IMG/VR virus record: IMGVR_UViG_2767802067_000003
Location: 9,633 to 73,632 of that record
Direction: 5' to 3' (one strand)
Length of the DNA stretch: 64,000 bases
DNA from: a virus
Lineage: Duplodnaviria; Caudoviricetes
Shown piece by piece: positions 34,048 through 47,668 of the stretch. The stretch's first letter is position 1; each line of letters opens with the position of its first letter. The notes under the pieces were generated by a model. The model had not been told where the DNA came from. It made no database searches and saw nothing but the letters and a program-made list of their open reading frames with translations. The position numbers and the translations under genes are program-made.

Positions 34048-34086
34048 TGTCCGATACGGTCTTGCACTAATAGGAGCGCCCAGGCT
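34048..34086 (-). repeat. 39-bp inverted repeat, left copy
   Basis: 35/39 identical to the reverse complement of 46801-46839. Confidence 0.85.
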
Positions 34087-34108
34087 CCCTGAAAGCTTCT
34101 GAGAACTG

Positions 34109-44952: not shown

Positions 44953-45063
44953 TGCGACCCCAGAGCTGACCGCCGCGAGACCTCACCCGTCTCCGACGCA
45001 CGATCCGGCGGAGTTCTGCCCGGGCGCTCACAGCGAACGCTCCGCTGCCCGTACGCTCTTCCC

Positions 45064-46002
45064 ATGAGCGGCGGTGAGGCCTTCGACCACTTGAACGACG
45101 TCCTGCGGGTCGCTCTCGCGGACCGTGACATCCACACCAGCGAGAAGCGAGGCGAGCGCCTCAGGGTGACCGTGGCCACCGTCGAGCGTGGCCTGACGTT
45201 CCTGGCCCGTCCCCTGCTACGGGTTCCCGGTGCCCTGCTGGACGAGCAGGTCGTCGGGTACCACGAGTGGCCGCTGACCCTGCTCGGGCACATCGCCGCC
45301 GGGCAGTGCCGGGCGAAACCGCCCTACAACCGCCTGAAGCCCTCCAGCGTCCGGTACATCATGGACGGCCTGGCGGACCTGAACAGGGCAGCCGGGAACC
45401 GCCCGTACTGGTGGGAGGCCAAGGGCATGCGGCCGTGGGCCGGCCACACCAAGAACCCGGTCGCTCCGCTGGAGCACGTCGTCCTGCGCCGCGAGTTGAG
45501 CGAGCCCGGCCCCCAGCGCTGGGAGCCGTACCGGCTGCGCCTGCTCGCCGCCGTCGAGTTGCTGTGGGACACCGGGACGACGCCCAGCGGCCTGGTCGCC
45601 GCCAACGTGGACGACTTGTCCGCTGACTTCTCGCGCATTCGACTCGCGTGGACCGCGCCAGGGCGGCACACCGAGCGGGTGGAGCAGGAGTGCCTGCTGC
45701 ACCCGAACACGACGGCCGCGTTGAAGATGTGGCTTCCGGTGCGAGACCAGGTCGTACAGGACACGCTTCGCCAGGGCCTGGAGGGCTCCCGGGCGCTGTT
45801 CATCACCCTGCGGCACACTACGGGCGCGCAGAAGGACGGATCGCCTCGGCAGGTCCCGCCCGGCGTCAGGATCCTGCGCACCGGCCTGGACACCGCTTGG
45901 CTGTCGTGGATCCGGAGAGCGAACAGCCACCACGCCGGGGAAGCCGGATGGCCGATCGCCACCGACTTCTACCGGGTCGCCCGGGGAGACGGCCCTACAT
46001 AG
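45064..46002 (+). CDS. Degenerate tyrosine recombinase-fold protein lacking catalytic residues
   Basis: [27 protein letters not shown]...ALKMWL..R...ALFIT; no catalytic Arg, HxxR or Tyr; TACGCT just upstream suggests a leaderless mRNA. Confidence 0.65.
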
Positions 46003-46010
46003 CAAAATCT

Positions 46011-46040
46011 TTGACAAAGGCGGCGCGAGGCACTAAAAAT
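46011..46040 (+). promoter_or_regulatory. Near-consensus sigma70/HrdB promoter
   Basis: TTGACA-17 nt-TAAAAA(T) in an AT-rich patch. Confidence 0.65.
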
Positions 46041-46076
46041 GGGTGCCGGCCACCCGTCACTCCACGAGGACTCGAC

Positions 46077-46736
46077 ATGACGCTGCCTCTGCTCGAAACG
46101 CTGCCGACCCGAGACCCTCGCATGGTGCGCGACAACAGCCCCTACCGCCGGCTGGCCCAGGAAGTCCTCAAGGCCCACGCCGAGAAGAACACCGACCAGC
46201 TCGAAGCCCTTCTCAAGGCCTACACCCTGATGGTGCATCCCCTGCCGAGCAGCCGCACCAAGGCCGTGACCATCGTCCGCCAGGAACTCGCCGACAGTGA
46301 CACGTTCTGGAACACCCCGCCCCTGGAGCGCTACGACCTCATCCCCGCCGACGCCCGCGGAGACGGAGGCCGGTACATGACCCTGCGAGGAGTCTGCCTC
46401 CTCGACGCGCAGCGCTCCGAGTACGGACCGGACGGCAAGCGCTGGAACAACCGGACCTTCAGTGAGCGGTTCGGTGTATCGCGCGGCCGCATCGACCAGC
46501 TGCTCCAGGCCGCCAAGAAGGCCGCCGACTACGATCTGACCCTGGTCGAAAACTGCTGCTCCCCGGCGCCGGGGGACCCGATCGTCGGCTTCACCACCCG
46601 CGGCAACGACGTCTCGGTGCACCGCGCCGACTGCGTCAACGTCGAGGCACTGAGCCAGCAGCCCGAGCGGCGGATGATCGACGTCGAGTGGGCGGCCACC
46701 GAGCCCTCGGTAGTCGTGGTGGACGCCAAGAGCTGA
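46077..46736 (+). CDS. HTH protein fused to a RelA/SpoT CC (zinc-finger/RIS) domain
   Basis: [19 protein letters not shown]; [30 protein letters not shown]...[10 protein letters not shown] matches the RelA CCxPxPGDxIxGxxTRGxGxxVHRxDC motif. Confidence 0.8.
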
Positions 46737-46800
46737 CACCAGCCCCCGACTAACCTCTACCGCTTCCCAGTAGCTGATCCGGCTTGGGAAGGCGACAGGC

Positions 46801-46839
46801 AGCCTCGGCGCTCCTATTAGTGCAACACGGCATCGGACA
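46801..46839 (+). repeat. 39-bp inverted repeat, right copy
   Basis: AGCCTCGGCGCTCCTATTAGTGCAACACGGCATCGGACA; includes one arm of TAGTGCAAC...GTTGCACTA (46818-46852). Confidence 0.85.
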
Positions 46840-46867
46840 ATGCGTTGCACTAGGGGTGGCGAGTGCT

Positions 46868-47668
46868 TCAGGCGCCGGCCAGGTGAACAGCCCAGGCTGC
46901 GGCGGCTTCACCCGACCAGGCGGCCGCGCTGGTGCTGTGCCCGCAGGAGCAGGTGATGGTGTGGTTCCCGCGGCCGCCGCGCTGGGTGGGGTAGTGGTCG
47001 CTCAGGTGGCGGCCGTAGGGCTGGTGGTTGTCGCAGACACGGCCGACGTTGGCGTACGACATCCAGTAGCCCGTGATGGTCCCGGAGGGGTCGTAGTCAC
47101 GGCTGCAGTCCGGGTGGAGGCACGTCTCGCGGGACAGGTACTTGGTCGGCAGGCGGCGGGAGATGTGCTCGTGGGCGAGCTTGGCCCATTGGGCGTCCGC
47201 CACCGGGTGGTGATGGTCTGCTGGCCGCGGCGGCATGTCGGGCATCCCCGCGAGCGTCCGCAGGGTGCGCAGGTCGTTGACGTGCATCGGGATCTGACGG
47301 TGGTTGTTGTTCCAGTCACTGTCGAAGAGCATCTGCAGGTTCACTTCGTCGCGGGCGCCGTAGTAGGCGTACAGCTCGGCGGGCTCGTCGCCGGGGGTCG
47401 CGGTGAACCAGGCGGTCAGGTCGTCGCGAATCTGCTCGGGGGTCTTCACGTCCGGGTGCGCGAGGTCGAGTTCGCCTGCGCGGGTGGGCAGGTGAGGCCA
47501 GACGTTGTCGCGTAGCCAGGGGTGGGCGCGGGCGGCGTCCTGGTCCATGGCCGCGTTCACGGCGAAGTACGTGTTGCCGGAGCCGTCGGTGATGGCGAGT
47601 TCGAGCAGTCCCCCGATGGTCCGGCGGTCGGGGTGGTACTCGGTGTCGAGGTAGGTGTGTCGGGTCAC
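46868..47668 (-). CDS. DEDDh 3'-5' exoribonuclease (Rv2179c/RNase AS-like) with C-terminal Zn-binding extension
   Basis: YLDTEY...LAI...YFAVN...WLRDNVWPHLP...LYAYYGARD...DLR...HHPVADAQW. Confidence 0.85.
   Translation of the reverse strand: MTRHTYLDTEYHPDRRTIGGLLELAITDGSGNTYFAVNAAMDQDAARAHPWLRDNVWPHLPTRAGELDLAHPDVKTPEQIRDDLTAWFTATPGDEPAELYAYYGARDEVNLQMLFDSDWNNNHRQIPMHVNDLRTLRTLAGMPDMPPRPADHHHPVADAQWAKLAHEHISRRLPTKYLSRETCLHPDCSRDYDPSGTITGYWMSYANVGRVCDNHQPYGRHLSDHYPTQRGGRGNHTITCSCGHSTSAAAWSGEAAAAWAVHLAGA

What the first reader, a model, noticed from the sequence alone, without database searches (positions are those of the whole stretch)
46011..46736. Captured RelA zinc-finger (CC/RIS) domain fused to an HTH protein behind a strong promoter
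Seen: residues from 46554 ([46 protein letters not shown]) closely follow the RelA/Rel regulatory domain; no synthetase or hydrolase domain is present; TTGACA-17-TAAAAA lies upstream. Known: this domain contacts the ribosomal A-site finger, and overexpressed RelA C-terminal fragments dampen (p)ppGpp synthesis in E. coli. Inference: a phage-encoded stringent-response inhibitor or ribosome-sensing regulator; (p)ppGpp also controls Streptomyces development and antibiotic production.
Basis: partly seen in the sequence, partly recalled or inferred. Interest (0 to 1): 0.75.

Follow-up and report, generated by a model that had tools for sequence, protein, structure and literature searches.

The report
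Phage gene with captured Rel zinc-finger
A gene on a Kitasatospora phage-like element recently gained, in frame, a 168-base piece of a host rel gene (the zinc-finger that anchors Rel to the ribosome); a sister element still has the gene without it, and the piece shows no sign yet of being kept for Rel's job.

Summary
Window 46077-46736 (+) is a well-supported 219-codon gene (GC3 0.895, GAGGA ribosome-binding site) behind a TTGACA-18-AAAAAT promoter-like site. Residues 160-215 are a true Rel/RelA zinc-finger (ZFD/CC/RIS) core, with E 4.8e-16 to M. smegmatis Rel. No synthetase, hydrolase, TGS or ACT part is present.

The origin is resolved. A related element in another genome assembly matches the flanks at about 92% and skips exactly 46551-46720. 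Its protein, P0003, ends VEEDAES*. So 56 rel codons were inserted in frame near the 3' end of an orphan gene. The piece is 93% identical to the closest rel among 166 genus genomes and 88.5% identical to this host's own rel.

Since capture it has gained 8 amino-acid changes and one extra codon, against 1-3 silent changes. All fall at positions that are invariant in 30 Rel proteins, and one puts Asp in place of a near-invariant Gly. This fits neutral drift and differs from Rel-type constraint (Fisher p 0.0004-0.003).

The fusion is unique in every collection searched, and no RNA data exist. The N-terminal part has only weak sigma-region-4-like HTH signals.

My reading is a recent, tolerated domain capture on a phage regulator. 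A stringent-response inhibitor is possible but unsupported. The scan has not noted this kind of capture on other DNA.

The parts
46011..46040 (+). sigma-70-type promoter-like site, TTGACA-18-AAAAAT, in an AT-rich 74-nt gap after the stop of the upstream gene (46002)
   Evidence: 10 of 12 matches; 1 found against 0.2 expected; sequence. Consensus match only; no transcript data.
46066..46070 (+). GAGGA ribosome-binding site, 6 nt before the ATG
   Evidence: read directly. The NCBI-annotated relative P0003 starts at the same Met.
46077..46736 (+). coding sequence, 219 aa plus stop (P0001)
46077..46550 (+). ancestral orphan N-terminal part (codons 1-158), 90% identical to P0003 of Kitasatospora sp. 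NPDC085464
46434..46514 (+). probable helix-turn-helix, sigma-70 region 4.2-like (residues 120-146, ...[15 protein letters not shown])
   Evidence: helices 125-132 and 136-151. Weak; below the family cut-off.
46551..46720 (+). inserted segment, absent from the sister element, which has GA here (net +168 nt, 56 codons). Homology to rel runs 46553-46722. It encodes C160-V215 of the ZFD core.
   Evidence: joint 46550 to 46721; loose ends of rel contigs at 46553 and 46722
46554..46559 (+). Cys160-Cys161 (CC motif; with His182 at 46620-46622 and Cys186 at 46632-46634, the four zinc ligands)
   Evidence: alignments. The ligand role is from established knowledge of the RelA ZFD.
46608..46610 (+). Asp178 (GAC) where Rel proteins have a near-invariant Gly (RGNGVSVH becomes RGNDVSVH)
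46668..46673 (+). CGG CGG: one extra Arg codon relative to every rel compared (PERM becomes PERRM)
   Evidence: table 4: 3 letters left out at 46667 in rel contigs
46721..46736 (+). ancestral 3' end (G GAC GCC AAG AGC TGA = ...DAKS*), matching P0003 ...DAES*
46761..46795 (+). hairpin after the stop codon; possible terminator without a U tract
   Evidence: fold; z -1.4, not significant
46796..46839 (.). right arm of a 44-nt inverted repeat (left arm 34048-34091). The sister element diverges right after 46839.

Best explanation
Shown: this is a real gene of a temperate phage or phage-plasmid-like element in a Kitasatospora-type actinomycete. Its ancestral form, still present in a sister element, is a 163-aa orphan protein. 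Inferred: that protein carries a probable sigma-region-4-like helix-turn-helix near its C-terminus and most likely acts as a DNA-binding regulator, made from its own promoter at the edge of the element's accessory block. Shown: a 168-nt fragment of a Kitasatospora rel gene was inserted between codon 158 and the last five codons, in the same orientation and reading frame as rel. The product therefore carries the Rel zinc-finger core (CC...H...C) as a C-terminal appendage. Inferred: the join arose by illegitimate recombination, because the junctions share at most 1-2 nt. Shown: the donor was closer to other species' rel (93%) than to the present host's (88.5%). Inferred: the element picked up the fragment in another host and moved on. 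Shown: since capture the piece has changed like unconstrained sequence, not like Rel. Inferred, and my committed reading: the ZFD is at present a tolerated, probably still zinc-binding knob on a phage regulator, and not an evolved inhibitor of the stringent response. The working part of the protein is the ancestral HTH domain.
For: The gene is real. ZFD homology is clear. The sister allele lacks exactly 46551-46720: its 20,178-nt contig matches 45014-46550 (113 differences in 1537) and 46721-46839 (10 in 119), with GA between the two, and its protein ends VEEDAES*. The rel contigs of three runs match only 46553-46722 and carry rel flanks as loose ends. GC3 of the insert is 0.964, like rel (0.976); the rest of the gene is 0.874, like the element (0.897 +/- 0.034). 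Identity is 93.3% to the nearest rel (G242) and 88.5% to the genome's own rel; synonymous differences are 3 against 9. On the fusion's own lineage there are 8 unique non-synonymous changes and one codon insertion against 1 unique synonymous change. pN/pS is 0.88 against the nearest rel, and 0.11 among rel genes. Fisher p is 0.0004-0.003 against the rel pattern, and the pattern does not differ from neutral (p 0.3-0.74). G178D falls at a near-invariant Gly, beside the position of E. coli R629. The fusion is unique: nothing like it was found in 1.84e9 representatives, 5.8e9 clusters, phage, plasmid or IMG/VR collections, or 566 family genomes.
Against: The insertion is in frame with both the recipient and rel, which by chance would happen about 1 time in 9 given the orientation. 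It starts exactly at the first zinc ligand and ends at the domain's last strand. All four zinc ligands and most core residues are kept. AlphaFold2 with an alignment folds residues 160-209 at block-mean pLDDT 76-85. An 8:1 ratio of non-synonymous to synonymous changes would also fit adaptive change. With 55 codons and about 11 changes, neutral drift and positive selection cannot be told apart. The HTH assignment is below every curated threshold. No DNA target, expression data or oligomer state is known.
Confidence: 0.55

Rival explanations
1. The captured ZFD still docks on the ribosomal A-site finger (23S H38). It either competes with Rel for starved ribosomes, damping (p)ppGpp synthesis, or it tethers the phage regulator to ribosomes as a sensor of translation state.
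For: The Rel ZFD is the key anchoring point on the A-site finger (PMC5829649; PMC7058999). The CC motif, His and Cys are kept. The insertion is in frame and bounded by the domain. A strong promoter-like site is present. The ZFD part is predicted to fold.
Against: Only 56 aa were captured, without the RRM/ACT, helical and TGS parts that share the ribosome contacts. Even full-length RelA did not bind or respond to an isolated A-site-finger RNA. The RelA-CTD effect needs high-copy expression of residues 406-744, is independent of RelA, and is absent at low level. Asp178 adds a negative charge beside the R629-equivalent position, and R629E was used to break this contact. Eight replacements fall at genus-invariant positions. 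The fusion is unique.
Confidence: 0.13
2. The ZFD has been put to a new use unrelated to ribosomes. It could serve as a zinc-dependent dimerisation or protein-contact module that alters the HTH regulator's DNA binding, or as a decoy that binds a host partner of Rel.
For: Older work proposed that the ZFD mediates RelA/Rel CTD oligomerisation, through C612, D637 and C638 (cited in PMC6719525), and the equivalents C160, D185 and C186 are kept. HTH regulators commonly need a dimerisation module, and the insert lies right after the putative HTH. Fast amino-acid change (8 non-synonymous to 1 synonymous) is what a change of function would look like.
Against: Turnbull et al. found that intramolecular, not intermolecular, interactions dominate and could not reproduce the effect of those mutations. 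The ancestral protein works without the module (P0003, 90% identical). Nothing here tests oligomer state. The substitution pattern is equally well explained by drift.
Confidence: 0.22
3. Artefact or dead gene: the join is an assembly chimera between rel and the phage gene, or the gene is no longer expressed.
For: Short-read contigs of the source run break inside the insert at 46610-46642, where a stretch is shared with rel (table 8). No RNA data exist.
Against: Each junction is spanned by a zero-mismatch contig that carries fusion-specific variants, at single-copy depth (74 and 79), while the host rel contigs differ at 7 of 87 and 11 of 110 positions. The deposited assembly and Logan's assembly agree. 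The insert differs from the host's rel at 19 of 165 sites, so it cannot be a mis-join with it. The frame is open with strong codon bias, and the promoter and ribosome-binding site are intact.
Confidence: 0.04

Closest known systems
Zinc-finger domain (ZFD, also called CC or RIS) of long RelA/SpoT homologues: Rel of actinomycetes (M. smegmatis Rel on the 70S, PDB 8fr8), B. subtilis Rel (6htq), E. coli RelA (5iqr, 5kpx)
   Same: Clear homology over residues 157-215 (E 4.8e-16). It is 85% identical in protein to Kitasatospora Rel over 55 residues and up to 93% in DNA. The CC...H...C ligands are kept. The predicted hairpin-helix-strand fold superposes on 8fr8_I (49 residues, rmsd 2.3 A).
   Different: It stands alone, without synthetase, hydrolase, TGS, helical or ACT/RRM domains. 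It lacks the roughly 17 residues that precede CC in the E. coli domain. It has Asp for the near-invariant Gly178, an extra Arg, and six or seven other replacements at positions invariant in the genus. It is fused to an unrelated phage protein.
Overexpressed RelA C-terminal fragments (Gropp et al. 2001; Turnbull et al. 2019, PMC6719525)
   Same: A Rel regulatory part made without the catalytic half, which could in principle occupy Rel's ribosomal site.
   Different: Those fragments span residues 406-744 (TGS-helical-ZFD-RRM). The effect needed a high-copy vector, was independent of RelA, and was absent at low expression. Here only the ZFD core is present.
Phage and prophage RSH-derived genes: toxSAS toxins such as CapRel(SJ46) with its pseudo-ZFD, and phage small alarmone hydrolases (PMC7229694; bioRxiv 10.1101/2022.05.30.493996)
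   Same: A mobile-element gene that carries a piece related to the RelA/SpoT world.
   Different: CapRel's pseudo-ZFD lacks the cysteines, is described as analogous to classical zinc fingers, and sits on a toxSYNTH domain. Here the cysteines are present, the piece is a recent copy of the host's long-RSH ZFD, and there is no enzymatic domain.
Sigma-70 region 4 (Pfam PF04545) helix-turn-helix
   Same: A motif [12 protein letters not shown] like region 4.2; hhalign P 1.3e-4; Foldseek rows for sigma region 4 chains (1l0o_C TM 0.66, 3n97_A TM 0.68, normalised on the target).
   Different: Scores 12-13 bits against a cut-off of 24.1. It was not found by the family search of the genome. No region 2 was detected. 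The structural model is of low confidence.
Host gene fragments and morons carried by temperate phages
   Same: Host-derived DNA with host-like GC3, in an accessory block, with its own promoter-like site and a downstream hairpin.
   Different: It is not a whole gene but one domain core, inserted in frame into an existing phage gene, and the pre-insertion allele survives in a sister element.

Membership tests
Long RelA/SpoT homologue (Rel/RelA/SpoT) | (p)ppGpp synthetase domain | tested here: not met
   NCBIfam TIGR00691 matches only profile positions 540-609 of 687 (50 bits against a cut-off of 499). Pfam finds nothing in residues 1-159.
Long RelA/SpoT homologue (Rel/RelA/SpoT) | HD hydrolase, TGS and ACT/RRM domains | tested here: not met
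   Absent from the 219 aa. The protein ends 4 residues after the insert.
Rel ZFD / CC / RIS domain | significant sequence homology to the domain | tested here: met
   phmmer against PDB gives 4.8e-16, 3.4e-12 and 3.3e-10; 170 nt are 85-92% identical to rel in 166 of 166 genus genomes.
Rel ZFD / CC / RIS domain | the four zinc ligands (Cys-Cys ... His ... Cys) | tested here: met
   C160, C161, H182 and C186 align with the near-invariant columns. Zinc binding itself was not tested.
Rel ZFD / CC / RIS domain | near-invariant Gly of the G-x-G loop before the His strand | tested here: not met
   D178 where 90% or more of aligned Rel sequences, and all 30 genus Rel proteins, have Gly.
Rel ZFD / CC / RIS domain | binding to the 23S rRNA A-site finger | not testable with these tools
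   Needs ribosome co-sedimentation or cryo-EM. Inference from PMC7058999 suggests that D178 is unfavourable.
Sigma-70 region 4 HTH (PF04545) | score above the Pfam gathering cut-off | tested here: not met
   12.1-13.0 bits against 24.1. Not among the 57 matches of the family search in this genome.
Sigma-70 region 4 HTH (PF04545) | profile-profile or fold similarity | tested here: inconclusive
   hhalign probability 54%, P 1.3e-4. ESM Atlas neighbours have TM about 0.35. Foldseek E is 0.6-1.9 on a low-pLDDT model.
CapRel-type fused toxSAS (pseudo-ZFD antitoxin) | toxSYNTH domain with a cysteine-less pseudo-ZFD | tested here: not met
   No synthetase part, and the cysteines are present. Definition.
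Host-derived insertion in a phage gene (moron-like cargo) | demonstrable host origin and a pre-insertion allele | tested here: met

The most novel reading that the evidence does not exclude
The insertion is an adaptive innovation. A phage transcription regulator has acquired the host stringent factor's ribosome-anchoring zinc finger and uses it to read, or to blunt, the starvation signal at the ribosomal A-site finger. The burst of amino-acid changes would then be retuning, not decay. That would be the first virus-borne regulatory domain of a long RelA/SpoT homologue, and it would come with a natural before-and-after pair of alleles.
Probability: 0.12. Interest if true: 0.8.

Novelty: new variant of a known kind. 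Interest (0 to 1): 0.4.

Why it matters
Phages are known to carry alarmone synthetases and hydrolases. I found no report or database example of a phage gene that carries only the ribosome-anchoring zinc finger of Rel. The main value here is evolutionary. The event is young enough that the donor gene, the recipient allele without the insert, both junctions to the base, and the first substitutions can all be read. That makes it a clean natural example of how a new domain fusion arises on a mobile element. It also provides a ready-made experimental pair, the fusion and the P0003-like allele, to test whether an isolated Rel ZFD does anything in a cell. If it did affect (p)ppGpp, that would bear on development and antibiotic production in Streptomycetaceae. 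The present evidence gives no reason to expect such an effect.

Tried and rejected
As a result dN/dS of the N-domain and conservation of the promoter could not be measured. Only the summary is available, and its difference table is cut.
- Genome contigs, viral contigs, phages and plasmids hold no relative of the N-domain and no other ZFD-only gene.
- The 25 'phage' tblastn rows cover only the ZFD, at 38-63% identity, in mostly unannotated records. The only annotated ones lie in Salmonella chromosomal records, under GTP diphosphokinase and SpoT genes. I did not inspect the unannotated records.
- All 8 IMG/VR loci hold Rel genes, not captures: seven are full-length open frames of 737-786 aa, and one is cut by the locus start.
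- The local Pfam copy gave no hit for the whole protein. Precomputed annotations list PF28438 for it, which the local copy seems to lack.
- AlphaFold2 on the single sequence was useless (pLDDT 38.6). With an alignment only the ZFD part became confident, so fold matches for the N-domain are weak leads only.
- P0022, a 2325-aa repeat protein (E 1e-5), matches residues 70-120 at 30% identity in many repeats. I treat it as uninformative.
- A 24-nt exact match to contig C26 lies in an unrelated gene and encodes AAKKAAD. It is chance.
- No RNA holder is listed for this stretch, so expression is untested.
- Soil-metagenome contigs about 90% alike cover 46065-46423 but not the junction. They say nothing on whether that relative has the insert.
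- There is no TTA codon in the gene.
- The hairpins after the stop are not significantly more stable than shuffles (z -1.4).

Full report
**1. What is there**

The finding's coordinates hold a single gene, window 46077-46736 on the + strand, 219 codons (P0001).
- The ATG lies 6 nt after GAGGA (46066-46070).
- GC at the three codon positions is 0.68, 0.46 and 0.895. A codon log-odds score trained on this genome's long ORFs is 82, one of the clearer genes of the window.
- In the 74-nt AT-rich gap after the upstream gene, the promoter scan finds one site, TTGACA-18-AAAAAT (46011-46040, 10 of 12 matches, 0.2 expected by chance).
- Two hairpins follow the stop codon. They are not significantly stable.

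The window is C13:89832-153831 of an 8.78-Mb, 253-contig genome. Around the gene lie:
- portal/MuF, prohead protease, tape measure, and GH25 and CHAP lysins;
- a tyrosine integrase, an RNase H/exonuclease-like gene, and Sak4-like and Cas4-like genes.

So the element is phage-like. The whole 154-kb contig has about 70% GC, against 73% for the genome.

**2. The Rel domain is real**

Residues 157-215 match the zinc-finger domain (ZFD, also called CC or RIS) of solved Rel/RelA structures:
- M. smegmatis Rel, 4.8e-16;
- B. subtilis Rel, 3.4e-12;
- E. coli RelA, 3.3e-10.

NCBIfam's spoT_relA model matches only its positions 540-609 of 687. Nothing else of a long RelA/SpoT homologue is present. With an alignment, AlphaFold2 folds residues 160-209 at block-mean pLDDT 76-85. 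Foldseek's best row is the ZFD of 8fr8 (49 residues, rmsd 2.3 A).

**3. Where it came from**

- The genome's own rel (C22, 809-aa frame) matches 170 nt of the gene at 87%. Homology starts abruptly at the CC codons and ends about 15 nt before the stop.
- All 166 other genomes of the genus have the segment in their rel at 85-92%. The closest, G242, is 93.3% identical over 55 codons, against 88.5% for the host's own rel.
- GC3 of the segment is 0.964, like rel (0.976). The rest of the gene has 0.874, like the element's genes (0.897 +/- 0.034).

**4. The event itself**

The N-terminal 159 residues are an orphan. HMMER against 1.84 billion representatives finds one relative, P0003 of Kitasatospora sp. 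NPDC085464 (163 aa, 90% identical). P0003 ends ...DYDLTKVEEDAES*. The window's protein reads ...DYDLTLVEN[CCSP...VVVV]DAKS*.

Laying the contigs of a 2025 genome run (X3) on the window shows this at the DNA level.
- One 20,178-nt contig matches 45014-46550 (113 differences in 1537 nt).
- It then skips 46551-46720, with GA in that place, and goes on over 46721-46839 (10 differences in 119 nt).
- The rel contigs of X3, of the source run X1 and of a soil metagenome match only 46553-46722. Their loose ends on both sides carry rel's own flanks.

The indel and the rel homology therefore coincide to within two bases. A net 168 nt (56 codons) of rel were inserted in frame, in rel's own frame and orientation, five codons before the stop. 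Microhomology at the junctions is at most 1-2 nt, so I infer illegitimate recombination.

Insertion, not deletion in the sister element, is the parsimonious direction, because the segment is host-like in both sequence and composition.

An assembly chimera is unlikely. Each junction is spanned by a zero-mismatch, single-copy contig that carries fusion-specific variants. The host rel contigs differ at 7 of 87 and 11 of 110 positions.

**5. What happened after capture**

In the 30 closest genus rel genes the encoded ZFD is almost invariant. These 30 were chosen by similarity to the query, which is a caveat.

Against them, the fusion carries 8 unique non-synonymous substitutions: T162S, V164A, V/I173T, G178D, Q208E, S209P, F212V and L213V. 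It also has one extra Arg codon, but only 1 unique synonymous change.
- Against the nearest rel, pN/pS is 0.88 (8 non-synonymous, 3 synonymous).
- Among rel genes it is about 0.11.
- The fusion branch differs from the rel pattern (Fisher p 0.0004-0.003). It does not differ from the neutral expectation of 75% non-synonymous (p 0.3-0.74).

Rel-type constraint is therefore gone. With so few changes, drift and adaptive retuning cannot be separated.

G178 is near-invariant across diverse Rel sequences. It follows the position of E. coli R629, which lies 3.5-5 A from A-site-finger phosphates and whose change to Glu was used to break ribosome recruitment (PMC7058999). An Asp there is, by inference, unfavourable for that contact.

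The four zinc ligands are kept. With 8 hits spread over 55 residues that has about a 50% chance under drift (my own calculation), so it carries no weight.

The synonymous distance is 3 differences to G242's rel and 9 to the present host's rel. This suggests the fragment was picked up in another Kitasatospora lineage and that the element moved afterwards.

**6. The N-terminal part**

Signals for an HTH are consistent but weak:
- Pfam Sigma70_r4 at E 0.075-0.15, 12-13 bits against a cut-off of 24.1;
- hhalign against 35 region 4 segments of this genome, P 1.3e-4, probability 54%, residues 120-146;
- ESM Atlas structural neighbours that are sigma factors or HTH proteins, at TM about 0.35;
- Foldseek rows for sigma region 4 chains, TM 0.66-0.68 normalised on the target, E above 0.6;
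- predicted helices 125-132 and 136-151.

I call it a probable sigma-region-4-like HTH, not a member of the family. The gene and its upstream neighbour (45064-46002) are syntenic in the sister element.

**7. Is the fusion found elsewhere?**

No.
- Nothing was found in the phage, plasmid or IMG/VR collections, or in 566 genomes of the family and genus.
- A ZFD-profile scan of IMG/VR returned 8 Rel genes: seven full-length open frames of 737-786 aa and one cut by the locus start.
- A search with the ZFD region alone returned only Rel fragments.
- Literature searches found no phage-borne long-RSH ZFD.
- Earlier notes of this scan hold no similar case on other DNA.
- No RNA run is listed.

**8. 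Reading**

The origin is settled with high confidence. For function, the weight of evidence favours a young, tolerated appendage on a phage regulator:
- the fusion is unique;
- the ancestral allele does without it;
- constraint is relaxed;
- Asp replaces an invariant Gly;
- only a 56-aa core was captured.

Turnbull et al. saw the effect only with the whole CTD at high copy. It was independent of RelA and absent at low expression (PMC6719525). Full-length RelA did not detectably bind an isolated A-site-finger RNA (PMC5829649).

Against my reading stand three points. The insertion is in frame on both counts. Its edges match the domain's edges. The excess of amino-acid change is also what a new function would produce.

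I therefore keep two functional rivals alive: ribosome or Rel interference at 0.13, and a new zinc-dependent contact or dimerisation module at 0.22.

**9. Verdict**

This is a new variant of a known kind, host-fragment capture by a phage. Its interest lies mainly in the captured event being readable base by base, and in the testable natural pair of alleles.

Noticed in passing
window 34048-34091 and 46796-46839: A 44-nt inverted repeat (89% complementary) brackets a 12.7-kb block that ends 60 nt after this gene. In the sister element (run X3), homology runs to 46839 exactly, and then 1627 other bases replace 46840-47541. The repeat arm is therefore a module boundary. Copies of the arm lie on other contigs of both genomes.
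   Followed up: partly
window 45000-46839 (run X3): The sister element's contig has word depth 163, against about 80 for that genome's rel contig. That is about two copies per chromosome, which would fit an extrachromosomal (phage-plasmid) state. In the source run the element and rel have similar depth (74-79 against 65-78).
   Followed up: no
contig C13 as a whole (window = C13:89832-153831): All 154 kb of the contig have about 70% GC, against 73% for the genome, and not only the phage genes. The mobile element may be much larger than the window, or the contig may be a separate replicon.
   Followed up: no
window 46868-47668 (-): A convergent 266-aa gene matches PHROG 2259 'RNase H' (4e-21) and, weakly, the Rv2179c-like 3'-5' exoribonuclease family. 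Its C-terminal third is rich in Cys and His. Most of it is replaced by unrelated DNA in the sister element.
   Followed up: partly
window 45064-46002 (+): The upstream 312-aa gene has no Pfam or PHROG match here. It is syntenic with the fusion gene in the sister element.
   Followed up: no
window 46041-46055: A GC-rich 5-bp stem with a 5-nt loop (GGGTGCCGGCCACCC) sits directly after the -10-like hexamer, at or near the expected transcript start. It may be an operator or a leader hairpin.
   Followed up: no
G000:C18:97279-97428 (L003): The genome has a second long RelA/SpoT-like open frame (748 aa) whose ZFD is only 34% identical to the captured piece. It was not the donor.
   Followed up: no
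window 46065-46423 (run X2, soil metagenome): Short low-depth contigs about 90-93% alike to the N-terminal part show a third relative of the orphan gene in soil. The junction is not covered.
   Followed up: no
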